IMG/VR virus record: IMGVR_UViG_3300009104_000020
Location: 791 to 64,790 of that record
DNA length: 64,000 bases
Direction: 5' to 3' (one strand)
From: a virus
Lineage: Duplodnaviria > Caudoviricetes
The notes below the pieces were generated by a model. The model made no database searches. It saw only the letters and a program-made list of their open reading frames with translations, and was not told the DNA's origin. Both the position numbers and the translations under genes were made by a program. Shown here piece by piece: positions 2,494-57,700 of this stretch (the first letter of the stretch is position 1; the number at the start of each line of letters is the position of its first letter).

Positions 2494-2843
2494 ACTGTAT
2501 AAACATAATAGGGAGGCTTACGGCTGACCCAGAGACGCATCAGATGACTAATAGCTCCGTCTGCAACATTAGAATCGCGGTTAATGGCCGCAAGAAAGAC
2601 GGCGACAGGTGGGTGGACGACCCAATGTTCATCAACGCAAAGGCTTGGGACAAGCAGTCCGACTTCATTGCCAAGCACTTCGAGAAGGGCAAAGAGATCT
2701 GGATACAAGGCGAACTCAGAATCGAGCAATGGGAGAAGGACGGGCAAAAGAGGAGCGCACCCGTTATTAAGGTTCGCACCTGCGGCTTCACCAGCGGCAA
2801 GGGCAACGGAAATGGCAAAGATGCCGGTGATGAGTTTGTATGA
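2490..2843 (+). CDS. ssb: Single-stranded DNA-binding protein
   Basis: MN...IGRLTADPE, AW, KG..I.IQGEL..EQWEKDGQKRS; acidic tail. Confidence 0.95.
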   Translation: MNCINIIGRLTADPETHQMTNSSVCNIRIAVNGRKKDGDRWVDDPMFINAKAWDKQSDFIAKHFEKGKEIWIQGELRIEQWEKDGQKRSAPVIKVRTCGFTSGKGNGNGKDAGDEFV

Positions 2844-3058
2844 GTTGGCTCATTGCACTTTTGAAGGCAGTCCCCGCATTGAGGAAGATCGGTGAACTAC
2901 TTGAAAGGAACATCAAGGCGGCAAAAGCAAAGTCAAGGAGGAACCACAAAGATAAACTTGTGGACGATGCTATTGCTGATGCTCTTGCTCACCCCAATGA
3001 GCGGGTGCATAACGGTAGAGTACAACAACGCTCACGACCTAATAAAGATGCACCCTAA
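2840..3058 (+). CDS. Hypothetical membrane-associated protein (possible Rz/i-spanin-like)
   Basis: Amphipathic/hydrophobic N-terminus; overlaps a lipoprotein gene in another frame. Confidence 0.4.
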   Translation: MSWLIALLKAVPALRKIGELLERNIKAAKAKSRRNHKDKLVDDAIADALAHPNERVHNGRVQQRSRPNKDAP

Positions 3059-3161
3059 AGGGTTCCGAGACGCCGTACACGCTTCTACGGAAAGCGCGGA
3101 ATTTGTGGAGGACTGCCTTCACACTATTAACGAACTAGAGGAAAAGCTGGAGAGCCAATAA
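2967..3161 (+). CDS. Small lipoprotein (possible Rz1/o-spanin-like)
   Basis: ATG 2967: MLLLMLLLTPMSG-C lipobox; start embedded in the upstream gene. Confidence 0.5.
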   Translation: MLLLMLLLTPMSGCITVEYNNAHDLIKMHPKGFRDAVHASTESAEFVEDCLHTINELEEKLESQ

Positions 3162-3643
3162 TGCCTCGAAACCCGACCTCACAACGCGCTCAAAAAATGC
3201 GAGATGGCTTTATTTACTTCATCTTGCAGGGTGAGGACTCGTGGAAGCAGTTGGAGCGTAGTGAGTTTGAAAACATGGGATGGGATGGAGTGTCCTTTGT
3301 TAAGATTGGCCGCACGGTAGATGTCAGGAAGAGGCTTGAGTCCCTGCAATGCGGCAACCCGATGGGACTTCAGCTACTAGGCTGCGTCAGGGGAGGCCCG
3401 AAGCTTGAGGGCAAGCTGCACCGCTGGTTCAAGCCATATCGCCACTCATGCGGGGAGTGGTTCCTGTATTCCTATCGGGTAGCACAATACATCAACTCTC
3501 TTCACCTTTATAAACCAAACGGCAACTGCGAACCAAAAGATGTGGAAGGCGATGGCGACCTCGCTCAGTTTGAGAAAGAGTTCGAGATGCTTCTTGGGTG
3601 TGAATGTGTCTGGACGATTGAAGATCATTTAATGTTTGCATGA
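3161..3643 (+). CDS. GIY-YIG (T5orf172/MUG113) domain protein
   Basis: GFIYFI...VKIGRT....RL.SLQCGNP...E..LH..F....GEWF. Confidence 0.85.
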   Translation: MPRNPTSQRAQKMRDGFIYFILQGEDSWKQLERSEFENMGWDGVSFVKIGRTVDVRKRLESLQCGNPMGLQLLGCVRGGPKLEGKLHRWFKPYRHSCGEWFLYSYRVAQYINSLHLYKPNGNCEPKDVEGDGDLAQFEKEFEMLLGCECVWTIEDHLMFA

Positions 3644-9349: not shown

Positions 9350-9524
9350 CGCTGTCTAGCCAACGCTCAATTTCATCCAGAATATCCACGGGAACCTGAT
9401 TCTTCGGCATCGGACTCCTTACCAGTATCTTCATCTGGAACCCAGTTTCGTCTGCCACACAGGCTGCCCCAACCGCAAACACCATTCCCTCGGAGCATAT
9501 CGTCAATATGAAGTATCTTGGCAC
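9306..9524 (-). CDS. Hypothetical protein
   Basis: Coupled to the upstream prepilin-like gene. Confidence 0.45.
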   Translation of the reverse strand: MPRYFILTICSEGMVFAVGAACVADETGFQMKILVRSPMPKNQVPVDILDEIERWLDSVRKDYHQYHLMSLP

Positions 9525-9832
9525 TACTCGATTTCCTCCAAGAACGAACGAGCGTCATACCTCGGCCTGTGACAGTCGTGACAGTTGGCTTCCTGTGGTA
9601 TCTCTATAACCAACCTCCCGCTTTCCAACACCCCAACACCATATGACCTAACCGCTACACGGCAAGCCACCCTCTGGGCCTCCTCCTTCGCCTGACCAAC
9701 CCCCGGCAAAAGCAAAGACACCAGCAGTATGATGATTACACATACCATCAGCAACTCTATTAGCGTCACCCCTTGATCCCTTCCTTTTTCCAGCCTGCGC
9801 TTTCCCCAGGGTACTCCTCGTTTATCCAGCAT
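9524..9832 (-). CDS. Prepilin-type N-terminal cleavage/methylation protein (PVC/DUF1559-type N-terminus) with CXXCH
   Basis: G|VTLIELLMVCVIIILLVSLLLPGVGQAKEEAQRVAC; C-terminal CHDCH. Confidence 0.8.
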   Translation of the reverse strand: MLDKRGVPWGKRRLEKGRDQGVTLIELLMVCVIIILLVSLLLPGVGQAKEEAQRVACRVAVRSYGVGVLESGRLVIEIPQEANCHDCHRPRYDARSFLEEIE

Positions 9833-10113
9833 CCTCCCCCCATTATAATTTTAAACGGCATATAGCACCCACACCCAGCATTACTACCGCTATAAGGCCG
9901 ACAACGGCGTAGGCTCCGATCAAAAAGCAAACACCTACTGCAACAACGATACTTTCTAGCAACCTCTTTACCACGACTTCCTCCTATCACCTTTACCATA
10001 CTCCACACTAGGCGCAACTTATCCCTCACCGTTGCCCCCCCAAACTCCTCCTTCAACACCTCAAGCCACTCTTTGTAACGCTTTAGCCTGAACATAGGTG
10101 CAGAGAGTAGCAT
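9766..10113 (-). CDS. Cys-rich protein (DUF6171-like)
   Basis: C..C......RRC......CGCYMPFK.....CW. Confidence 0.55.
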   Translation of the reverse strand: MLLSAPMFRLKRYKEWLEVLKEEFGGATVRDKLRLVWSMVKVIGGSRGKEVARKYRCCSRCLLFDRSLRRCRPYSGSNAGCGCYMPFKIIMGGGCWINEEYPGESAGWKKEGIKG

Positions 10114-10270
10114 TGAAAGTGAAAAACGCCAGAAAGTTGAGAAGAGGGATGTATAGCTGCTGCCTTGGCTAGACGCCGTCCCCCCTCCCCCTACCCCCCC
10201 AAATGGGCCAAACGGGGTAACACTATTTGGTTAGGGTGACAACGCAGTTCCTATAGGTGTAAGGCCTTAC

Positions 10271-10281
10271 GGTCTTTGACA
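10271..10281 (+). promoter_or_regulatory. boxA-like antitermination element
   Basis: GGTCTTTGACA resembles rrn boxA (GCTCTTTAACA / GTTCTTTGAAA); sits at the head of the long non-coding region. Confidence 0.4.
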
Positions 10282-10285
10282 TTGA

Positions 10286-11156
10286 GGGTGCAAGCCGGTG
10301 GATGCCGCTTGTATCCGTTGGGTTCAGTAGAGGCTTCCGCTAAAACGCATGGCGGCTACCAACCCTGACTGTACTAGATTTTCCGCAAGTTGCCTTGGCG
10401 ACTATGTGTCGGGCGGAGACGGTCAGCGGCAAAAGGGTGCAAGCAAATAGTCAGCACCACGGCCATGTTAAATGTTAGCATCATCAGGAGTAAGTGACGC
10501 GCCTCATGGGACACAACAAGCAATCAGCGGATTACCGAAAAACCGATGGAGAACGAAACTCCACGCAAAAAACAAATATTAGGCTTCGGCCAAAAATGCA
10601 GCGAGTAGGTTAATCCGGCTCCGAGAATGGAGTGTTCCACACAAACAAATCGTCATAATCATTGGAACATGGCGTGATAGTATGCGTCCCCGATAGCATG
10701 GGGCATAAGTAGGACGGTGCGACCGGCGAGGTCAGCAAATGCACCGTGGCAGCCGAATCAAGCGTATATTCCCAAAGTGGAGCATCAAAGAATGCGTGAA
10801 ATAGTTTCGCCAATGAAGCGTTTGAGAGAGATTGGTCGAGAATGCGTGTGCGTTGAAGCTAGTGTTAAAAGCTAGTGACAGGAACGGCACGGGGTACGCA
10901 AAGTAAATCCCAAAGGGCAAGGGCCACAAGGCTCAAAGCTGATGGGTGTTGCGGCGAACCATAGCGAAACGGCATTAGTAGATGTTAGCAAGGTGGGTGT
11001 GCGGTAGTCACTACGGTGGCGAGATACCTGATGAGGGAAATCAGACCTCAAGGATAGGCCGTGACAGCGGCGTGACAGATCCTGCTTAAAATCGTGGCAT
11101 ACGAGCGGCGAGCGTGTTCAAGCAACACCTTTGCAAGTCAACGCTGCTCAAGTGTC
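10286..11156 (+). ncRNA. Large structured non-coding RNA, GOLLD-like
   Basis: No + strand ORF of 60 aa or more; consecutive hairpins with G-U pairs on the + strand, cUUCGg loop, A-rich linkers; family assignment is by resemblance only. Confidence 0.65.
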
Positions 11157-11212
11157 TAGTGCTTGTTGGCATTGCACTACTGATGATGACCAGCCAAAAA
11201 GGTCGAAACACT
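11151..11212 (+). ncRNA. Type III hammerhead ribozyme
   Basis: AGUGUC|UAGUGC-loop-GCACUA-CUGAUGA-U-GACC-loop-GGUC-GAA-ACACU; loop1 UUGGC pairs with loop2 GCCAA. Confidence 0.92.
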
Positions 11213-11234
11213 AAAACAAACGAAAGGAAAACAA

Positions 11235-11870
11235 ATGAGTAAGCAATACAAAACCATAAAAAACGGTGGATTAGTCAAGGTAGAGATCGACAGTTATCAA
11301 ATCGCGATTCAAGGCACAACCGATATTCCGGCGGCGTCTTGGACAAAATACGACAGCTTGAACCAAGCAAGTTGGGCGAGCCAAGGGCTAATCAAGCTTG
11401 AATACAAAACCGACAAGCATGGCAAGCGAACGGTCAAGCGATTAGCGGAAAATGCGGAGTTTTACCGCAAGCAACACAAGGCTTGGAAAGCAACCGAAAA
11501 GGCAATCAATGATTCAATGCGGAAGATTGAAAAGGAAAACCCAACCCTGTCCAAGCAAAAGATGACCCTTGTCAAGGATGCGGATACCGGCGAGGTCAAG
11601 CGGTATGTGAAACGGGCAAGCTATAGAAACAGCGAACAACCCTTGCATATGCAGTTGAAAGGTGCGGAAAAGGTCAAGGCTACAGCGGCCAAGGATGCCA
11701 AGATACAGCAACAATCGGAAGAAATTGCCAGACTCAAGAAAATGGTAGCCAATATCCCACCTGCCAAGCCGGTACAGATTGACCCGTTGGCGGCATATAA
11801 AGCGGGTGATCCGGCACAACAGCAGCAGGTGATGTCTGCATTACAGACGCTTGGCTTGGTGACAGCCTAA
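11235..11870 (+). CDS. Lysine-rich basic hypothetical protein
   Basis: GAAAGGA SD; 22 nt after the hammerhead; followed by terminator. Confidence 0.8.
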   Translation: MSKQYKTIKNGGLVKVEIDSYQIAIQGTTDIPAASWTKYDSLNQASWASQGLIKLEYKTDKHGKRTVKRLAENAEFYRKQHKAWKATEKAINDSMRKIEKENPTLSKQKMTLVKDADTGEVKRYVKRASYRNSEQPLHMQLKGAEKVKATAAKDAKIQQQSEEIARLKKMVANIPPAKPVQIDPLAAYKAGDPAQQQQVMSALQTLGLVTA

Positions 11871-11901
11871 CAGCAGCAGTAGCAGTAGCAGTAGCAGTAG
11901 C
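11871..11901 (+). repeat. (C/T)AG triplet microrepeat
   Basis: CAGCAGCAGTAGCAGTAGCAGTAGCAGTAGC. Confidence 0.8.
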
Positions 11902-11938
11902 GACCCTGCCCACCATCGGAGTGGGTGGGGTCTTTTTG
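11902..11938 (+). terminator. Intrinsic terminator
   Basis: GACCCTGCCCAC...GTGGGTGGGGTC followed by TTTTT. Confidence 0.8.
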
Positions 11939-11948
11939 TAGCAAGATT

Positions 11949-12000
11949 TCCCTAGTGCATGGGCAGGTGTGCTAGGGACGGTTGAATCCTGCCCGTAACC
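11949..12000 (+). ncRNA. Putative kissing-loop/pseudoknot leader RNA
   Basis: TCCCTAGTGCA/TGTGCTAGGGA with loop TGGGCAGG; GGTTG/TAACC with loop containing CCTGCCCG. Confidence 0.5.
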
Positions 12001-12017
12001 CATAAGGAAAGGTAATC

Positions 12018-12182
12018 ATGTTAAGCAAAAGTGAAGTGAAAGAGTTGTTGGCCTTGGCGAGTGCCGAGATGGTGGATAGTGACACCCAAACGAATGGAAT
12101 CCCTGACATACAGGATGATGACGGCGAGGGTGTGGACATAGCGGTATCACCGACAGGAGAATTGGAGGTGGTGTACCTATGA
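12018..12182 (+). CDS. Small acidic protein (54 aa), absent from ORF track
   Basis: AAGGAAAGG SD; MLSKSEVKELL...DDDGEG...; ATGA-coupled to next gene. Confidence 0.6.
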   Translation: MLSKSEVKELLALASAEMVDSDTQTNGIPDIQDDDGEGVDIAVSPTGELEVVYL

Positions 12183-48769: not shown

Positions 48770-51700
48770 ATGGCAAACCAAATAGTAGATTTCTACCGCC
48801 AGCAGAACCCTACCTATACGGGAACTGATGACAGCATTACCCTGCTTTACGCAGAGGAGTACGCCAATGAACTTCCAAATCTGTTAAAGACCTACCCGGA
48901 TTTCGCACAAGACTACAAGAGGATCTATGACCACGCATTCCCTGTAACCGCCGGGGATAGGGCCAAGCAAGCTGCTGGATCACTAATCAAAGGGGTGACA
49001 GGAACAATCGCCTCAATCCCCGAGGCGGTAGGCATAGCGCGGGCTGAAACTTTTGGGCGGGGGCTGGGTGTGGGGACTACCGATTATCGGGAAACCTTAA
49101 TGGGCCAGTTAGCTGAAGGGATTCGCGGCGTGGGCGAATGGGCAGCACCAGAGGTTGCGGAAGCCAAGGCCGAGAACATGGCCGATGACTTTTGGACTAC
49201 GGTAGTTCCCGGTGCATTTGGTTCAGGCGTAGGATTCCTTACCACAGGTGGCTTAACGGGCATGGGGGTAAGGACGGCCGCTGGTGGGATGCTGGCGAAG
49301 GGAGGGGCTAGGGTTGCCACAAAGGAAAGCGATAGAATGGCCAAGGTGCTTTCCGGCGGATTGCACTCCCCGGCAGTCAAAAACATCTCCCAGAAAGCGG
49401 GCAAAGGAGCAAGCGACCGTTACTTAAAGAAGAAGGCTAGGCAAATAAACGCCGGTAGTATTGCTGCTCTAGGTTCAGCCGCAAACGCCACGGCAGGGTA
49501 TAAGGACGCCCTCGCTAACGGAGCAACACCTGAACAAGCTTTATCATCCTATCTACTTAACGGACTTGTCGGCACAAGCGAGGCAATGCCTTTGGCAAGA
49601 ATGCTTAACCGACTGGACAATGCGAGTGGTGGGACATTGATGTACTACCTCGCCAATGCAGCACCAGAAATACTGGAGGAATCCCTTCAGGAAGCAATGC
49701 AATCGGCTGCCGGGGACATCATTGCAGCCAACATCGTTAAGTATGACCCCGACAGGGTGATGTATGAGCATCTAGAACGCGATGCGGCTGCCGGAGGTGT
49801 GTCCGGTGGGCTTCTGTCCATCATCACATCTGCATTAAGCCGGAAAGCAAAGCTTTTAGAGGACAAGAAAGCTGGAAGGTTCGTGGAGGATGAAGGCTTT
49901 GTCCCCGGTGAGGGTGAAGAAACGGTTACGGACGCCAGGGGGCGGTACAAGGGTGGCAGAGAGGGTGACATAACCAAGCTTGCCATGATGGTGGCCCTTC
50001 AGCGGCAGGACGATCCAACCGGGCAAGATCAAGAGGCATGGGCGAAGCTTCGGCAGGCTCACGAAGAGGTAATAGGGAACGACCCTGATGCCCAGATGAT
50101 ATTTGAGGCTGAAATCTTTAATGCCGACTCAGACCTTGCCGCTGACCGTGCAGCCAACGTAATCAACACGGAGCTGGGAGAGATCGCTAACCCGGAGAAA
50201 CGGAAGAGCCGCGCCGTAGAGTCAACCATAAGCCTTGCACCGGCAGACATAATAGGGGCAGAGGAGGAGCTTGACCCAGAACTGGAAGAGAATTTCGCAA
50301 ACTACAAGGGCGAACTGCTAGAGGAACGCAACAGTCTTGTAGGCGAGTTGATGGAGGTAAACAACAATATCAACTTGGCCAAAGCCGGTATAGAAGATTC
50401 TGCTGTTGACCCGGATCAAAGGGCTGCCTACGAACAGATGCTTGTTGGCAGACGGGGGGAGCTAGCTGGAAGAATACAGGCCATCAACGCAGAGATCGAA
50501 GGCATAGACCAGCGACTGTCAAAGGTGGGTCGGGCCACGCCGGACATTGACCTTCTTGATGTCCCGCAAACATTCGACCCGGAAGCCAGAAGAGAAGAAG
50601 CAGAGCAGGCTTTAGATATTGAAACCCGGCTGGTCGCAAGACTGCGTGAAGAACTTGCAGAGCTTGAAGAGCTTGAGAAGGAAGAACTAGACACGGCAGA
50701 GAAACAAAAGTATTGGGATGACTTACACCAAGAACTAGCAGATGACCGCGCCGCGCTGGAGGAACTTCGCGACCAGATGGAAGCTCAACTGTTGGACAGG
50801 CTGGCCGCATTAGAGACGACAGACACCAGCGAGTTTTCCGAGGAGGACTTACAGGGCCACGCAGAACTAGTTCAGATTACTAGGGAACAACTGGAGGGAG
50901 GAGTAACTTCCGGGCAGGCCGCAGCAGCCGTCGGGTTAACCTCTGACCAGTTAAGCAGGCTGGTTCGATACACGGAAGGCAACACGGACTGGAACAAACA
51001 CCGGCCAACCCCGGCAAAACTAGTTCCAAGAAGATTAGGTGGGGCAAGGACAGTCGGGACTGCTCAAGACTTGACCTCCCTAGAGCGACGCAAGGCTAGG
51101 GTAGAGAGTGAAATTGCGGGGCTTAAAAAGAAACCGGCAACAAAAAAAGCTCCGGTCAAAACACAAACTAAAGCAGCTGTAGCAGCAACGGAGCAACACA
51201 GGAAAACGCGGGGGGTTGTCCGAATCCTTCCAACCATTGAAGGAAAGACTCAATTAGAAAGAGCCGAACAGGAGCTTGCCGGAATAAAGGCTGACATCGC
51301 TAGAATAAGGGAAGCTGAAACAGTTGTAAGAGGCCCGGATCAATTAACGGCAGGCGAACTGAACGCCGCAATCAAAGGCCAAAAGCTGCTCATCAAGAGG
51401 CTGGAGAATCGTGTGGCTGCCGGTGAAACGGTATTCAAGGGAACCGGACAATCCATCCTGTCAGAAATAGAGGCCCGCAGAAAGCTGGTCGAAGAACTGG
51501 AAGCTAAACACGCAACAAAGAAAAAAGCGCAACAGACAGCAGCAGAATTTGACACAGAGAAGAACGCCAAGAAATCACAAACCCTCGGAATAGAGCAAGC
51601 CCTTGACCAAGCCGAAGAGCAAAAAACAGCCGCAACCAAGAAGTTCGACAGACTGGTTGACTCTCTAAAGGGCCTGTCTCCAGAGGAAAGAACTAAACTA

Positions 51701-54700
51701 GATCAACAAAAAGCCAACATTAACGCTGTTAACAGGCTGGATAAAAAGATTAGTAATAACATAAAGAAGATAGACAGCCTTGAGAAAAGGATCAGCAAAG
51801 CTGTAAAACAAAGCACAAAAGATAATCTCCGAAAACAATCCAATGCATTAAAGTCTGAGAACACAAAGTTAAGCAATGATAAGCGGCTAATAATCGGTGT
51901 AGAAAGTGGCCTGACGAAGGAAGAGGCGCTAGACCCGGAAACGGATATTCAAGATACCAAGAAGGCGCAGAACGATGCCATTGTTGATGATTGGGTTGAT
52001 GCCAATAACGAAGTCACTAACACACAACGCGAGTTACGGGATGCCAGCAAGCGTGATCCGCTGGATGTCAGGAATGTTGAGATCATATCCCACTTCGGTT
52101 CTGACCGGGGGCTGGCCGAATACGGAAGGGGAGACACAAACAAGCAAGACAGGGAACTGAAGGCAGGGCCAGCTTACTATGAGGTAGGAACAAACGACAC
52201 AACCCAAGCAACCAAGTGGGGCAGGGAAGCGACAGAGACTTTAAATAAATATAAAAAAGCCACGAGCGAAGAGGAAAGAACAAGGCTGGCTCAACAACTC
52301 GCCTCCCAACTGGCAAGGGGCGCAAATGTCCGTGGAACATCTGGAGTGTCCCGCAGGGGAATTTCATTCATTGCCCCAGATGGAAAGATATGGGTGCTAG
52401 GGATAAGCCGCAGCGGGAAGGACAAAACCAGCTACAGCCTAGTGCCGCCAAAGACAGATCCAAATGACAATGTTGGTTACGAAGGCGTACTGTTTGAGGA
52501 CTTGCTGGCCCAAGGGTTTATTCCGTTTGCTGCGATTCGACTTCGGAACCCGGCTGTCAGGCTTAACTACAAGATAGAGTCTGCTGAAGAGTATGAGAAC
52601 ATAGTAGCCCCCATAAAGCGGGAGGTTGTCGATACGCCTGCATTCATGGAACAAGTGTCTCAGGGGCCGATTAGTAAAACGGTTTCCTTGAACGCAATCA
52701 TCGAGAAGGTTGAGCCGGTGTTTGATGCTGGGACTGTATCAAGGACGGGTATTCGCCTCGGTGAAACAGATGCAGCAAGAGCCGCGAGCCGAACCTCCCC
52801 CGTTGACGAACCAACAGAAATAGGAGAAGGGCCAGTTACCCCGGCAGAAGCTATCGTCGAGGCTGAAGAAATTGTAGAAGATATAGAAGTTAAAATCCTG
52901 ACGGAAGAAGGTGCTGGCAATGTTTTCGACATACTGAACAAGGTAGACGACACACCTGTAGAAGTTGTGGTGAACCCGGAAACGGGCCTTGTGGTGCAAA
53001 GCGAGGAAGATTCGATCAGTAGCGTCGAAGAGGCGATTGACGAGGTTATAGAATCGGACGAACAACTCGATAACCTTGTCGAAACACTAGGCAAGGCTTC
53101 CGCAACCAAGGGCATAAGGTTTGTAGAATTTTTAACAGATCACATACTAAAGATTTATGAAGAAAACGCAGGATCAAAAGAAGCGTTCGTTGAGGCGTTC
53201 CTCGGTAGCGACTCTGCTCAAATTATTGGCGAGCAAATACGAGCAGAAGCATTCAACGAAGAACTCAATCGCGACGACACAAACCAGCAGCTAGATAATC
53301 TGGTTGCCAAAAAGCAAAAGGAAGAGTCAGACCCGAACTCTAGAGAGGATACTGTTGCCGAAGAAGAACAGGAGGCTTGGGATGTTGTCTTCCCACCAGG
53401 GGAGCCTGTCATGTCTGTTCCTCTAGGGTTAGGCGGCCCGACGGGCAGTATTTCCGGTTACTCAACATTCGACAGGTTATGCGAAAACTGCTCCGGGAAG
53501 GTGATGCGCTTTTTCAAGGACATGGGGATACCTGTAACTTATGCTGTCATCACATCCAAAAGCCCTGTAGGAAAAGGGAATATAGCCCATTGGGTTGCAG
53601 TCGTAAATATTAACGGAAAGACTTATGTTGTAGATGATCCACAAACCAACTTGATAGAGGACGCGCCGGAAGCTGGTGAGGTTGAATCAACTAGAGAGAG
53701 GTACATTGGCGAGGCCCCTGAAATGGAGGGTCAAGGCAGAGTTATCAAGGACACTTTCGATCCTGTACTAATCCCTGTCACACCAGAAGCTCTGGAAGCT
53801 GCCTACGGACAGACTATAAAAGAGGAAGTTCTAATTAAATCGGGGGTATTGAAGGGTGATGTGTTTTCTGAAAGCTACAATCAGGTAGAGAGAAACATAG
53901 AAAAAATTACCAAGGCAGCGGCAGAGATTGGTGGGGCAACTGAAACACAACAAGAGGAAGCACCTGCTCCCAAACCGTTCGTCGCCAACGAAATCAACAA
54001 GGACGGCGAGACGGTACGGATGACCTCCGAGCAGTACCAAGACCCTGCCTTTAGAAAAGCTAACAAACTTGATCCGCTTGAATACTTTGTAGACGAGAAG
54101 ACCAAGAAGAAAATGCTGGTTAACCAACCCTCGTCAGGGCCGGACATCACCAGAGATCGCAATGCTCCAGACAGGCCTCACAGCGCATACCCAAGAGTTT
54201 CCCAGCATAAGCTAAACAAGATTTTCGCATACCTGATAGAACGACTACGCACCTTGGGTGTGCAGGTGGAGGTGACTGAAAGAGAGTTTGCCAACGCAGC
54301 GACTAAAGCCAAGGCAATGTTCGGGTTCGCCAATGGAAAGCCGATCATCGTGCTGGCCATGAACTCTCTGGAGAACGCAACCACACAGAATTTATACGAC
54401 CTGCTTCACGAGATTGGCCACGCTGCGACAGCGGATATGCCCAAAGAGGCTAGGCTGCGGGTGCTGGCTGCCATTGCCAAGCTCAACGATTCAGTCCTCA
54501 AGATACCGGGACGCAAGTACAGGATCCCATTGGACGAAGCTGGCGAACTTGATGCTGAGATCGAACAGGAGGAGAGGTTGGTTGAAGCTATTGCACAAGC
54601 GTTGATAAGCGAGAACTTTGACCCGACAACGGCTAACACTCTAGCTAGTAAGATTGTCAGGTTTTTCCGTAACCTTATGCTGGCCGTTAAACAGGCTTTC

Positions 54701-57700
54701 CATCGCATGATGGGTCACGACGGCGAGGTTGCGCTGAACTATTTCAAGGCACAGGTCGAGGCAATGCTTACAGGCAATGAGGCTCCGGCATATTTAAGCT
54801 GGGTTTCTGGGTATAAGTATTCTGTCAGCGAACGGATGGACTCAATGGAGCTTGAGGATTCTGATTCCGTAATTGATTCGATATATGACCTAGCCGGTTT
54901 CAGCAAGGAATACAAACTGGTGGTTGGAGATTCGCCAGAGGCAGTTGAGCATAACATCAGATGGGCCGGGATACGGTTCACCGTGGAGAGGGATGACCTT
55001 TCACCTGAAGATCTGGCTGCATCAAGGATGAGAGCGCAAAGGATTATAGCATCTGATAACGCTCTTAACGAAATACTGATCGGCCTGCACGACACATTCA
55101 GGCGCACAGGAGGCAGCCGGTTTTCCGGGATCAGCAGGGAGGAATTCGTAAACCTGCTTACCAACGGGAAACTTCCTAGTGACAGGATCAAGGCAGCCAT
55201 AGAGGCATCAAAGGACGAATCGCTTGCCAACACGCAGATGCAAGACCTTGAAGGTGAGGAGGCAAAACAATCTGCCGCTGTCATGCTTCACAGGCATCTG
55301 TCATCCATTGAAACCAGACTCAAGAATCTCAGCGACGAAGCTAATATTGAGCTATCAGAAAGCGTCCCCGGTTCCTCGGTAAACAAAAACAAGAAAGCAC
55401 ACGAAGACCTTATAAAGCTGACCACCAAGTATGAGGATCTTGGGGTTATGCAGGATCATATCTACAGGATTTCAAATGAACTGATAAACGGGATGGCAGA
55501 GAAAACTGATAAGACCATCCCCAGGGTTCTGAAGGAGCTTGGATTAAAGGCAACAGCAAAAGAGATTGAAACAGCTAGAAACAAAAGGCTGGGTGATAAA
55601 TTTATTGATGCCCTTGAATATCTCTCAACCGAGATTACCGAGTGGGGAAGGGGTACTGCCAAGTCAATACAGAAGAAGATAGCCCTACTTGGCAACCCTG
55701 TAACTGACATCCTCAATGACCCGGCCACCCTAGCGTTGGCCATATCCATTGGAAGAAACCAGAAAACAGCAATGGCTCTGCTCGCCTTACGCAGGGAAGA
55801 TATGCAAGGGATGAAGCAGGCGTTCAACAAAGCTCTTGCCGCATCCATCTCAGGGAACGTGAAGGCTGCACTTAATGGGTGGAACACAAAGGTAAACAGC
55901 AGTACGAGAACAGACGCTCCCTTTGAAAGGATAGCAACTAAACTGCGAAAGGTATTAGATAAAATAGCCAAGGCCCAAAAAGTATCCGAAGCCACTCGTG
56001 AGGACTTGGACGAGTATGAAAGGAGAAATGCTTTATACGAAAAACTGACTGACCCCATTGCAGAGTACAAGGAAGAGGTTGGTGCGATCTTCGGGAAAGA
56101 AAGCGTATTGCCTAATTGGTTAGCCACCAAGGATGGAAAGGGTGGGCAGCAATGGAAAGAGTGGGCAGCCATAGACGGGGCCGTGTATGTAGTGCCACCA
56201 AACCCAGCGGCCAGCCTGAACGAACTAAAGAATCCGAAGAATCATAGCAAGCTTGACCTGATGGACATAAAGAACATTGGGCAGATTGTTAGGGACATCG
56301 AGAAGATGAACGCTTGGCTGCTGGCCCAGCCTATAGAACGCAGAGGTGGCGAGTACAACATGATTAAGCGCATGGTGGACAGGATGACTGAGTTGCAGGC
56401 CATTCAATATCACCGTGAGTTAGGCAACAGCCTTGTCGTTCGCCTTATGGGAAGCTTAACTGACAGGCTGGAGACGGTGGGAACGCCTGCGGCATCCAAG
56501 ATTGCGGCACAACTTAAAAGGTTTGCTTATTACATAGCTTCATATGCTGGCCACGGAAGTAAGTCTGCAATCCGCAATGGCAAGTTGTGGAGTAACAAGC
56601 TTCAAAAGGCCAGAATCAAGATGAAGGACGCAGGCCTTAACTATGACCTGAAGACATTCAAGAGGGTTATGTATGGCCCTGCGATGCAATACTTTCACCA
56701 CAGAAGAGACATACTCAATGACGCGCCAAACCGCGAGACAGGCGAGGACAGGTTGATCGAGTCTTGGCTGAACAGTAAAATCTCGTCCGACCCCATAATG
56801 AAGCCAGCTATTGACGCAGCTAGAGGTGAGCTTCGGGCGTTCTATAAACAGACGGCAGTTAATTCCAGACAGATAGCTGATGTTGCCTCGAAAATGGGAG
56901 TGATGGTTTACGACGACGAGGGTGGTTATTTCAGGGAGAGAATTGGATCAAGCCTGACGACCACCATGAGGCACACAAACGACACAGCAAAGAATGTTTG
57001 GCGATTCATGTCACCTGTATGGGGTCATAACAAAAGGAAAGAAAGCGAACTCGCTGGGGTATCAGAACGCCCGGATGCAAACAATTTAACTGAAGAAGAG
57101 TTCAATGATTATGTGGCGAACAGATTTGGGGACTTGCGAGTTGTAGGCGAATTTGTTTTTCCCATTGTTCTCAGGCCCGGAAGCAGCGTGTTTTACGACA
57201 TAGACGGATCTGTCCTTCCCAGAAAGTGGGTGCTGGATTCCCTACAGGAAAACGTAGGCCCAAGTGGGAGCAACATGGTTGGGTTCCTTAACTCCCTTAC
57301 AGAAAGAGCAGGGATAGAGAAGGATGATGTCAGGAGGTTTCAAGCTGGCATCGTAAACAGGTTCCAGAGTTTCTTCGACAAGCTCGATTCCGTGGTCGAC
57401 CAGCAAAACAAAGAGAGCGGCTTCCTTGGAGGCAAGGCTGCTGTTCCTATTCATGTAATGATGGACGCCCGCAAGTTCAATGATTTCCCCCTTGAGTGGG
57501 TTGATTACGCAGACTTCACGGAGCGCAGGATGTATCAGTTTGTAAAGAACCTATCCGCTGAAGCCGCATTCGGCAGGGACATGGTGCAGGTACATAACGA
57601 CTTTGCCCTTGCCCGTAATGACATAGGTGCAGCTATGGCGTTGCACGAGGAAATAGAAGCCGAGATTGGGAAGATGGGTTTGCTCAGTAGGCTAGGGCCA

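What the first reader, a model, noticed from the sequence alone, without database searches (positions are those of the whole stretch)
10271..11938. Candidate new system: boxA, giant structured RNA, self-cleaving hammerhead, basic protein, terminator
Seen: one apparent unit made of a boxA-like element, ~870 nt of densely structured non-coding sequence, a complete hammerhead cutting after C11156, a strongly SD-led 211-aa Lys-rich ORF, NAG repeats and a terminator. Established: GOLLD/ROOL RNAs are large phage-associated RNAs of unknown function, often near tRNA genes; hammerhead cleavage leaves a 2',3'-cyclic phosphate and a 5'-OH. Inference: with no tRNA here, the ribozyme matures the 3' end of the large RNA and frees a 5'-OH mRNA for a co-produced protein that may bind it as an RNP. 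I am not aware of this coupling being described, but could not search.
Basis: partly seen in the sequence, partly recalled or inferred. Interest (0 to 1): 0.9.

Follow-up and report, generated by a model that had tools for sequence, protein, structure and literature searches.

The report
Ribozyme-cut large phage RNA and gene
An uncultured marine phage carries a gene-free stretch of about 1 kb that folds as RNA, followed by a self-cutting hammerhead ribozyme and a small basic protein gene; a distant relative has a twister ribozyme at that same spot, so the cut itself seems to matter, but what the RNA does is unknown.

Summary
Window 10114-11234 is non-coding under every stop reading. The type III hammerhead at 11150-11212, cutting after C11156, is present in 4 of 4 related metagenome loci that include upstream DNA. 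There, stems I and II and a loop I-loop II pseudoknot show compensatory changes, and only core position 7 varies. In a test that does not use covariation to choose the structure, paired positions of the large RNA stay paired after double changes in 52% of cells. Slid controls give 34-40% and the neighbouring gene 34%.

The 211-aa basic protein (pI 9.8) belongs to a tiny orphan family. A terminator follows the gene.

New here: in a syntenic distant phage (DnaB 64% identical), the same protein gene is preceded by a twister-P1 ribozyme instead of a hammerhead. Selection therefore appears to act on the cut, not on the ribozyme class.

Not supported: boxA (it is one strand of a covarying hairpin) and GOLLD/ROOL membership (no Rfam match). 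Expression, cleavage and any RNA-protein binding are untested. Only the 5' ~170 nt of the RNA are recognisable in the distant relative.

Earlier unchecked notes of this scan describe ribozyme-linked large phage RNAs on other DNA.

The parts
10129..10155 (+). Conserved promoter-like motif CCAGAAAGTTGAGAAGAG...TATA; candidate start region of the unit (function inferred)
   Evidence: Unique in the window, with 0 expected by chance. Invariant core in 5 of 5 close loci. Also present in L008/L013, L014 and L012. In L010/L011 it lies 51 nt before the ATG of an SSB gene.
10180..10200 (+). C-rich tract (C6 T C5 TA C7), conserved; role unknown
   Evidence: Conserved in 5 of 5 close loci, and in L008 and L136. 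Coordinates.
10217..10226 (+). GTAACACTAT, one of 8 copies of GTAACACTAW, all on the + strand; second candidate promoter or regulatory site
   Evidence: 8 matches against 0.13 expected, all on +. The other 7 lie at gene boundaries. Invariant in 5 of 5 loci. GTMACACTAW occurs 5 times on the gene strand and 0 times on the other strand of the relative G004, one copy at the head of its non-coding stretch.
10231..11156 (+). Large structured non-coding RNA, about 0.93 kb (about 1.0 kb if it starts near 10160). The 5' end is inferred; the 3' end is the ribozyme cut.
   Evidence: No coding frame. No Rfam family. Covariation: 52% (280 of 539) of doubly changed pair cells stay canonical, against 34-40% in slid controls and 34% in the gene control. 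GU/UG 169 against AC/CA 20 cells. Whole hairpins are swapped or deleted between relatives.
10257..10282 (+).
   Evidence: Folds as a hairpin in 6 of 6 loci, with different stem sequences: AAGGCC/GGUCUU, AGGAC/GUCUU, UUAAC/GUUGA, AAGAG/CUCUU.
11150..11212 (+). Type III hammerhead ribozyme; predicted cleavage after C11156; extra U after A9; loop I-loop II Watson-Crick pseudoknot UUGGC:GCCAA
   Evidence: RF00008 24.4 bits, E 0.0017, full model length. In 5 of 5 loci the core is intact, position 7 is U/A/U/U/G, stems I and II change compensatorily, and the pseudoknot is UGGC:GCCA or AGGC:GCCU.
11223..11231 (+). Shine-Dalgarno-like AAAGGAAAA, 3 nt before the ATG
   Evidence: Similar GAAAGGAAAA...ATG strings stand before other genes of the window (family D2).
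11235..11870 (+). Gene for a 211-aa basic protein of an orphan phage family
   Evidence: 4 relatives among 5.8 billion clustered proteins. 4 representatives among 1.84 billion. 27 invariant columns across 8 sequences. pI 9.7-10.0 in all members. No Pfam family.
11871..11901 (+). CAG/TAG (GCAGTA) simple repeat between stop codon and terminator; copy number differs between relatives
   Evidence: Longer in L004, shorter in L005 and L006, absent in L007.
11902..11937 (+). Intrinsic-terminator-like hairpin (12 pairs, 8 G-C) with a T run
   Evidence: 5 terminator-like sites found in the region against 4.2 expected from shuffles, so the scan alone is weak. An equivalent G+C hairpin plus T run is seen in window, L004, L006 and L007, but not in L005 or L008.

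Best explanation
The stretch is one rightward transcription unit of an uncultured marine phage.

Proposed mechanism:
1. Transcription starts at one of two conserved upstream motifs (about 10160 or about 10231; inferred).
2. It runs through about 0.93-1.0 kb of non-coding RNA that folds into many conserved helices.
3. It continues through a type III hammerhead and the gene for a 211-aa basic protein.
4. It ends at an intrinsic terminator.

The hammerhead cuts itself after C11156. This releases the large RNA with a 6-nt scar and a 2',3'-cyclic phosphate end. It leaves an mRNA that begins with a 5'-OH and the compact ribozyme fold, 10 nt before the ribosome-binding site, so translation is uncoupled from the folded RNA upstream.

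Shown here: non-coding status, conservation, base-pair covariation, an intact covarying ribozyme, a conserved protein family, and replacement of the hammerhead by a twister at the same place in a distant relative.

Inferred: co-transcription, actual cleavage, the 5' end, and that the released RNA has a function of its own.
For: - Non-coding: stops in all six frames under any single stop reassignment.
- Hammerhead: full-length RF00008 match. In 5 of 5 loci the core is intact, only position 7 varies, and stems I and II and the loop-loop pseudoknot covary. Pseudoknots of this kind are known to support fast cleavage (PMC3088659, passages read).
- RNA structure: with structures predicted from single sequences, 280 of 539 doubly changed pair cells stay canonical (52%). 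Slid controls give 34-40%. The adjacent gene under the same test gives 34% (153 of 445) against 26-36% slid.
- On the alifold-derived structure, 45 of 257 pairs have compensatory changes, against 18.5 +/- 2.9 in shuffles and 6-9 in slid controls.
- Strand: GU/UG 169 against AC/CA 20 cells; alifold energy -355 on + against -290 on -.
- The RNA is more conserved than the gene in 8 of 10 locus pairs.
- Ribozyme swap: L008 comes from a phage whose DnaB is 64% identical. It has the same minus-strand ORF, 5' motif, C tract and P2 hairpin (nhmmer E 3.5e-29 over 170 nt), and the same protein family at 39-41% identity. A twister-P1 (44.4 bits, E 2.2e-8) ends 14 nt before its ATG. By my reading of that alignment, its two pseudoknots are kept by compensatory changes.
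- Terminator; conserved in 4 of 6 loci.
Against: - No RNA data: 0 of 20 listed sequencing runs is RNA. Transcription, the cut and the ends are unobserved.
- The hammerhead is below Rfam's gathering score (24.4 against 48.5) and carries an inserted U in 2 of 5 loci.
- Folding energy is unremarkable (z -1.64 for the window RNA; -0.29 for the L008 stretch).
- The alifold-based covariation count is biased. The same pipeline on the coding gene gives 28 compensatory pairs against 15.8 +/- 2.9.
- There are only five close sequences, from one lineage.
- Beyond the first ~170 nt, the non-coding stretch of L008 shows no similarity. A covariance model of the best-conserved central domain finds nothing there (best hits elsewhere, 11.5 bits or less). 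A conserved 'giant fold' across the wider group is therefore not shown.
- The terminator is missing in L005 and L008.
Confidence: 0.62

Rival explanations
1. It is a ribozyme-punctuated phage operon with a long leader. The ~1-kb stretch is a fast-evolving 5' leader or spacer with local hairpins and no function of its own as a free RNA. The ribozyme, as at other phage gene junctions, only sets the 5' end, stability or translation of the downstream mRNA.
For: - In G001, the same 5' motif and C tract are followed by an unrelated ~1 kb. After that come small genes separated by a type II hammerhead (30.2 bits, E 1.1e-4) and a twister (60 bits, E 1.7e-12), each just before an ORF.
- The body of the RNA is not recognisable in L008.
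- Ribozymes processing polycistronic phage transcripts have been proposed in print (PMC6765202 section 13; PMC3088659).
Against: - Within the close clade the non-coding stretch is more conserved than the protein gene in 8 of 10 pairs.
- It shows covariation that the gene lacks.
- A leader that is cut off and discarded would not be expected to keep ~40 helices.
Confidence: 0.25
2. It is an RNA-protein particle. The released large RNA is bound by the co-expressed basic protein and the two act together.
For: - The RNA and the gene are adjacent and co-oriented in 5 of 5 close loci with the relevant DNA. The 5' domain and the protein family co-occur again in L008.
- All 8 family members are strongly basic, pI 9.7-10.0.
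- Precedent: OLE RNA has a dedicated protein partner (PMC3413148, abstract in the listing).
Against: - The protein has no recognisable RNA-binding fold or family. The model is only moderate (pLDDT 66.6).
- RNA and gene have discordant histories: window-L004 gene 77% / RNA 63%; window-L007 gene 56% / RNA 82%. That is not what tight co-evolution predicts.
- Most of the RNA body differs in L008 while the protein persists.
Confidence: 0.1
3. It is a DNA-level element, such as a replication origin or a packaging or regulatory region next to the replication genes. In this reading the hairpins reflect DNA structure or protein-binding sites, not an RNA.
For: - It lies just downstream of the DnaB helicase, a Phg_2220_C protein and an HU-like gene, between divergent gene blocks.
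- Its 5' motif and C tract recur in otherwise different phages.
- Watson-Crick compensation is strand-symmetric (38 compensatory pairs on the - strand).
Against: - There is a strong excess of G-U over A-C at paired positions on the + strand (169 against 20) and a better + strand consensus energy.
- Intact, covarying self-cleaving ribozymes on the + strand only make sense in a transcript.
- No iterons: no direct-repeat family lies within 10114-11234 among the 20 largest of at least 60 families listed.
Confidence: 0.03

Closest known systems
Intergenic self-cleaving ribozymes (hammerhead, twister) in phage and prophage gene clusters (Perreault et al. 2011, PMC3088659; review PMC6765202)
   Same: - Type III hammerhead with a loop I-loop II pseudoknot, in a phage intergenic region just ahead of a small gene.
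- Hammerhead and twister occur in equivalent contexts.
- A related record (G001) has several ribozymes flanking single small genes.
   Different: - Here the ribozyme follows a ~1-kb conserved, covarying non-coding RNA rather than another gene.
- An orthologous locus shows a direct class swap at the same position.
- I did not find that combination in the papers searched.
GOLLD and ROOL large ornate RNAs (Weinberg et al. 2017, PMC5737381; cryo-EM preprint 10.1101/2024.12.08.627333, abstract only)
   Same: Large (roughly 0.5-1 kb) multi-helix non-coding RNA, phage-associated, function unknown.
   Different: - No Rfam match at E<=10, so it is not a member.
- No tRNA nearby, whereas GOLLD and ROOL often sit near tRNAs (PMC5737381, ROOL section passage).
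- Its 3' end is set by a ribozyme.
- Multimer formation is untested.
RiboJ-type synthetic insulators (ribozyme plus hairpin placed before a ribosome-binding site; PMC6206723 and PMC8383906, abstracts in the listing; that RiboJ derives from the sTRSV hammerhead is recalled)
   Same: A ribozyme that cuts near its own 5' end removes all upstream RNA. The mRNA is left with a constant structured 5' leader and a 5'-OH just before the ribosome-binding site.
   Different: This one is natural, and the piece cut off is itself conserved and structured, which suggests both products are used.
OLE RNA with its protein partner (PMC3413148, abstract in the listing)
   Same: A large structured bacterial RNA that works with a dedicated protein. 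It is the model for the RNP reading.
   Different: No sequence or family relation. No evidence here that the protein binds the RNA.

Membership tests
Hammerhead ribozyme, type III (Rfam RF00008) | Conserved core CUGANGA ... GAAA with a cleavable NUH site | tested here: met
   CUGAUGA, GAAA and GUC are present. In 5 of 5 loci only position 7 varies (U/A/U/U/G). One extra U after A9 in 2 of 5 loci. That such insertions are tolerated in natural hammerheads is recalled, not checked.
Hammerhead ribozyme, type III (Rfam RF00008) | Three helices around the core, stems I and II closed by loops, stem III open | tested here: met
   Stem III is AGUGU/ACACU. Stem I is 6-9 bp and stem II 4-5 bp, with compensatory changes (3 of 6 stem I pairs, helix 45).
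Hammerhead ribozyme, type III (Rfam RF00008) | Score at or above Rfam's gathering threshold | tested here: not met
   24.4 bits against 48.5. E 0.0017 in a 121-nt search. Not listed in the whole-window gathering search.
Hammerhead ribozyme, type III (Rfam RF00008) | [quoted passage not shown] | tested here: met
   A Watson-Crick loop-loop pairing of 4-5 bp is possible in 5 of 5 loci, as UGGC:GCCA or AGGC:GCCU. This kind is described in PMC3088659.
Hammerhead ribozyme, type III (Rfam RF00008) | Self-cleavage activity | not testable with these tools
   Needs in vitro transcription or RNA end mapping. No RNA run holds the locus.
Twister ribozyme, type P1 (Rfam RF03160), in the relative L008 | Match to the covariance model over its full length, with P1-P4 and conserved loops | tested here: inconclusive
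   44.4 bits against gathering 67.2. E 2.2e-8, model positions 1-68 of 68. By my reading of that alignment, P2, P3 and P4 pair and both pseudoknot partners change together relative to the consensus. G001 has a stronger one (60 bits).
GOLLD / ROOL large RNAs | Match to the family covariance models | tested here: not met
   No such hit at E<=10 in 9900-12100 or at gathering score in the window and 5 loci. That both families are in Rfam 15 is recalled.
GOLLD / ROOL large RNAs | Frequent neighbourhood of tRNA genes | tested here: not met
   0 tRNA genes in 64 kb.
boxA / Nus antitermination site | Conserved boxA-like sequence, accessible as single strand | tested here: not met
   UCUUUGACAU is kept in 4 of 6 loci, altered in L004 and replaced in L005. 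In 6 of 6 loci it is paired in a hairpin whose other strand covaries. The boxA consensus itself is recalled.
Intrinsic (Rho-independent) terminator | G+C-rich hairpin followed directly by a T run | tested here: met
   12-pair stem with 8 G-C pairs, then TTTTT. Kept with sequence changes in L004, L006 and L007.
Protein family of the 211-aa ORF | Any known Pfam, PHROG function or solved fold | tested here: not met
   Pfam none. One weak PHROG of unknown function, E 0.0061. Foldseek best E 0.28. VIA-align best Z 4.7, single long helices only. Atlas best score 0.77.

The most novel reading that the evidence does not exclude
The ribozyme-released ~0.93-kb RNA is a new class of large functional phage RNA. 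It would be a stable, cyclic-phosphate-ended molecule that acts in trans during infection, for example as a scaffold, a decoy for a host factor or a self-assembling particle, possibly together with the basic protein made from the same transcript. Interchangeable self-cleaving ribozymes (hammerhead or twister) would be the general way such phage RNAs get a precise 3' end. That would give phage ribozymes a concrete job.
Probability: 0.3. Interest if true: 0.85.

Novelty: new variant of a known kind. Interest (0 to 1): 0.62.

Why it matters
The biological role of most bacterial and phage self-cleaving ribozymes is still open (PMC6765202, section 13), and so is the function of large phage-associated RNAs such as GOLLD and ROOL.

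This locus ties the two questions together in a compact, testable form. It has a conserved, covarying ~1-kb RNA whose 3' end would be made by a ribozyme. It also has a natural swap of hammerhead for twister at the same position, which indicates that the cut, not the ribozyme, is what selection keeps.

The locus offers a defined construct for cleavage assays, end mapping and structure work, and a small orphan protein as a candidate partner. Unchecked notes of this scan suggest the same theme recurs in other uncultured phages. If so, it may be a general design and not a curiosity of one lineage.

Tried and rejected
- Known RNA families: Rfam at gathering score on the window and on 5 loci found nothing. 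The E<=10 search of 9900-12100 gave only three chance-level hits (SNORD27, bxd_4, MIR815).
- Coding under another genetic code: rejected.
- Public phage records: blastn of 10100-11950 against 50,697 phage records found no match.
- More RNA homologues by exact pattern: two scans of viral contigs and one of genome contigs found nothing.
I screened all fetched loci numbered L010 and above (125 of 134 held) for the C tract, CACTAT and TAGGGT. Only L013 and L014 passed, with L012 passing partly. None of the genome-contig loci did, so those look like chance matches.
- L001, a candidate distant protein relative, was rejected (hhalign probability 22.9%). It has no non-coding stretch upstream.
- The G001 128-aa protein is not related to the family (probability 3.6%).
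- A hammerhead-like string at L136:2613-2700 was not recognised by Rfam. I left it as 'possible, irregular stem III'.
- Folding-energy z-scores were unremarkable.
- My first compensatory-change count used a loose control and was replaced. The alifold-based count proved biased when run on the coding gene.
- RNA expression: no RNA holder listed among 20 runs. Laying four DNA runs showed only related contigs with swapped hairpins.
- T7-type RNA polymerase (PF00940) was not found in the record, but the control search rang nowhere, so this says nothing.
- Protein fold and atlas searches gave nothing usable.
- A covariance model of the central RNA domain found no match in the L008 non-coding stretch.
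- Antisense targets: the longest complement of the RNA elsewhere in the window is one 14-mer, which I judge chance.
- Papers: six searches and passages or sections of PMC5737381, PMC3088659, PMC6765202 and 10.64898/2026.10.21.760802 gave no description of a ribozyme-terminated large phage RNA. The library lacks most subscription journals. The twister discovery paper (PMC3867598) is not held. Supplements were not opened, and they may list gene contexts that bear on novelty.
Full report
**What the window is.** The window is 64,000 of the 64,790 bases of an IMG/VR virus record estimated 92% complete. Nearly all long ORFs are on the + strand. They include a DnaB-type helicase, an HU-like protein, a large terminase, structural proteins and a 3,731-aa ORF without Pfam hits. 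No record in the phage collection resembles 10100-11950. DNA holders are marine metagenomes.

**Checking the observation.**
- Between the start of a minus-strand ORF (10113) and the ATG at 11235 there are 1,121 bases with stops in all six frames. Reading any one stop codon through does not open a gene-sized frame.
- ARAGORN finds no tRNA in the window.
- Rfam finds nothing at gathering score. At E<=10 over 9900-12100 it finds only chance-level hits.
- Searched alone, 11120-11240 matches the type III hammerhead model over its whole length (24.4 bits, gathering 48.5, E 0.0017), with one inserted U after A9.
- The ORF 11235-11870 follows AAAGGAAAA. It encodes a protein with 38 K+R in 211 residues, pI 9.81.
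- A CAG/TAG repeat (11871-11901) and a 12-pair hairpin with a T run (11902-11932) follow.

**Relatives.**
- The protein has 4 relatives among 5.8 billion clustered proteins. A profile search of 1.84 billion representatives gave 4 hits. The family is real but tiny.
Five metagenome contigs carry close relatives. They are syntenic with the window over 9.7-12.7 kb. Four of them include DNA upstream of the gene.
- All four have the hammerhead at the same place. The core is unchanged except position 7 (U, A, U, U, G).
- Stem I is UAGUGC/GCACUA, UGGUGCG/CGCACUA, AAAUGCGG/CCGCGUUU or AGUUGCGG/CCGCGACU. Stem II is GACC/GGUC, GACU/GGUC, GGCC/GGCC or GGCA/UGCC.
- A loop I-loop II pairing exists in all five, as UGGC:GCCA or AGGC:GCCU. 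Such pseudoknots are documented as needed for fast cleavage (PMC3088659, passages).
- The hammerhead is therefore real and under selection, although it is below Rfam's threshold.

**Is the upstream kilobase a structured RNA?** Folding energy alone is not convincing (z -1.64 on +, +1.18 on -). The comparative evidence is stronger, but it needed a control.
- On the five-sequence alignment (A2), a consensus structure plus the hammerhead has 257 pairs and 91.9% of cells paired. 45 pairs have changes on both sides, against 18.5 +/- 2.9 in shuffles (0 of 500) and 6-9 in slid controls.
- That structure was chosen by RNAalifold on the same alignment. When I ran the same pipeline on the coding gene next door it also gave an excess (28 against 15.8 +/- 2.9). 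This count is therefore inflated.
- I then predicted a structure from each single sequence and asked what happens in the other four. In the large RNA, 280 of 539 cells in which both partners changed are still canonical pairs (52%), against 34-40% when partners are slid by 1-3 columns. In the gene control the figure is 153 of 445 (34%) against 26-36%. That is a real signal, diluted by the inaccuracy of single-sequence folds.
- Individual helices show it plainly. The hairpin holding the supposed boxA has four different stems in six loci. The long-range closing helix of the 5' domain has 5 pairs with compensatory changes (helix 6). Whole hairpins are deleted or replaced in L004 and L006 and in contigs of other runs.
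- The + strand is favoured by G-U usage (169 GU/UG against 20 AC/CA cells), by consensus energy (-355 against -290), and by the orientation of the ribozyme and the gene.
- Within this clade the non-coding stretch is more conserved than the gene in 8 of 10 pairs. The two have discordant similarities: window-L004 RNA 63% / gene 77%; window-L007 RNA 82% / gene 56%. That points to recombination near the ribozyme.

**The 5' side.**
CCAGAAAGTTGAGAAGAG...TATA (10129-10155) is unique in the window and invariant in the relatives. In two other viral contigs it lies 51 nt before an SSB gene, which fits a promoter.
- A C-rich tract (10180-10200) follows.
- Next comes GTAACACTAT (10217-10226), one of eight GTAACACTAW copies, all on the + strand (0.13 expected). 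The other seven lie at gene boundaries. The relative G004 has five GTMACACTAW copies, all on its gene strand, one at the head of its own non-coding stretch.
- Either motif may be the start. I cannot decide between them.
- The 'boxA' is the 3' strand of hairpin P2 and is replaced in L005. I do not accept that reading, although UCUUUGACAU is kept in 4 of 6 loci.

**The ribozyme swap.**
- A more distant family member (P0007) led to a 70.7-kb viral contig (L008, record G004, 100% complete). Its DnaB is 64% identical to the window's, and its version of the basic protein is 39-41% identical.
- The layout is the same. There is a minus-strand ORF, then the same motif, C tract, GTCACACTAT and P2 hairpin (nhmmer E 3.5e-29 over 170 nt), then about 870 nt without a convincing ORF, then the gene.
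- Just before the gene there is no hammerhead but a type P1 twister (44.4 bits, gathering 67.2, E 2.2e-8, full model), ending 14 nt before the ATG. In that alignment P2, P3 and P4 pair. The two pseudoknot partners differ from the consensus on both sides in a complementary way (my reading of the printed alignment).
- Both ribozyme types cut near their own 5' end. In both phages the upstream RNA would keep only 5-6 nt of ribozyme, and the mRNA would begin with the ribozyme fold.
- Two unrelated ribozyme classes at one orthologous junction is the best evidence here that cleavage at this point is what is selected.

**Limits of the 'giant RNA' reading.**
- Beyond the first ~170 nt, the L008 stretch has no detectable similarity to the window's RNA. 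A covariance model of the best-conserved central domain finds nothing there. Its folding energy is ordinary.
- A third record (G001) shares only the motif and the C tract. After an unrelated ~1 kb it has a 128-aa ORF, a type II hammerhead (30.2 bits, E 1.1e-4), a 60-aa ORF, a twister (60 bits, E 1.7e-12) and a 93-aa ORF. This is the gene-by-gene cutting known in phages since 2011.
- A long, fast-evolving leader in a ribozyme-punctuated operon therefore remains a serious rival.

**The protein.** There is no Pfam family and only one weak PHROG of unknown function. The AlphaFold model is moderate (pLDDT 66.6; a small alpha/beta part and two long helices). There is no significant Foldseek match (best E 0.28). 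VIA-align scores stay below Z 5 and cover single helices. The atlas gives nothing. It is basic in all members. Nothing shows that it binds RNA.

**Comparison with what is known.**
- The hammerhead is a member of the type III class by core, helices and tertiary contact, though not by Rfam score.
- The large RNA is not GOLLD or ROOL (no model match, no tRNA).
- The arrangement works like a natural RiboJ-type insulator, except that the piece cut off is itself conserved.
- Six literature searches and four papers read in part gave no description of a ribozyme-terminated large phage RNA, or of a hammerhead/twister swap at one orthologous site. The library is incomplete and supplements were closed.
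- Unchecked notes of this scan report ribozyme-linked large non-coding RNAs in several other uncultured phages. I did not test those.

**Verdict.** The thing is a new variant of a known kind: phage intergenic ribozymes, here coupled to a new large structured RNA. Interest is moderate to high, mainly for the ribozyme swap and for making the role of phage ribozymes testable. Function remains inferred.

Noticed in passing
window 16610, 22382, 26449, 30097, 37084, 48748, 59973 (+ strand): Seven exact copies of GTAACACTAA, all on the + strand and at gene boundaries (0.13 copies of GTAACACTAW expected). This is probably a phage promoter or other regulatory signal. The relative G004 has five GTMACACTAW copies, all on its gene strand.
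   Followed up: partly
L010:5626-5643 (-), L011:6157-6174 (-), L012:7817-7834 (+), L014:8527-8544 (+): The 18-nt motif CCAGAAAGTTGAGAWGRG from the head of this unit recurs in other IMG/VR phage contigs. In L010 and L011 it lies 51 nt before an SSB gene (Pfam SSB, E 1e-18). In L012 and L014 it is followed by the same kind of C-rich tract.
   Followed up: partly
L136 (record G001) 2613-3600: A ribozyme-punctuated run of small genes: a 128-aa ORF, a type II hammerhead at 3116-3188, a 60-aa ORF, a twister-P1 at 3427-3494 and a 93-aa ORF. A hammerhead-like string at 2613-2700, before the 128-aa ORF, was not scored by Rfam.
   Followed up: partly
window 10217-11870 versus L004 and L007: Mosaic history. 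The window's gene is closest to L004 (77% nt) but its RNA is closest to L007 (82%). Halves of the hammerhead also resemble different relatives. This suggests recombination at or near the ribozyme.
   Followed up: partly
window 10685-10766 and 10898-10952: Contigs of other marine runs replace these two stretches (80 and 49-53 nt) with 17-30 other letters. These are the same hairpin-sized replacements seen in L004 and L006.
   Followed up: no
window 48770-59965 (+): A 3,731-aa ORF with no Pfam family at E<=0.001. Its size recalls virion RNA polymerases of N4-like phages (recalled), but this was not tested.
   Followed up: no
window 9524-9832 (-): A 102-aa minus-strand ORF with a weak prepilin-type N-terminal methylation motif (PF07963, 20.4 bits, just under the 21.2 cut-off) and weak pilin PHROG hits.
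   Followed up: no
window 11871-11901; L004, L005, L006 after the stop codon: A GCAGTA/CAG simple repeat between the stop codon and the terminator. It varies in copy number between relatives and is absent in L007, like a slippage-prone microsatellite.
   Followed up: partly
window 11118-11122 with 11152-11156: RNAalifold also proposes pairing of GGCAU upstream with GUGUC. That would compete with hammerhead stem III. All the positions are invariant, so it cannot be judged.
   Followed up: no
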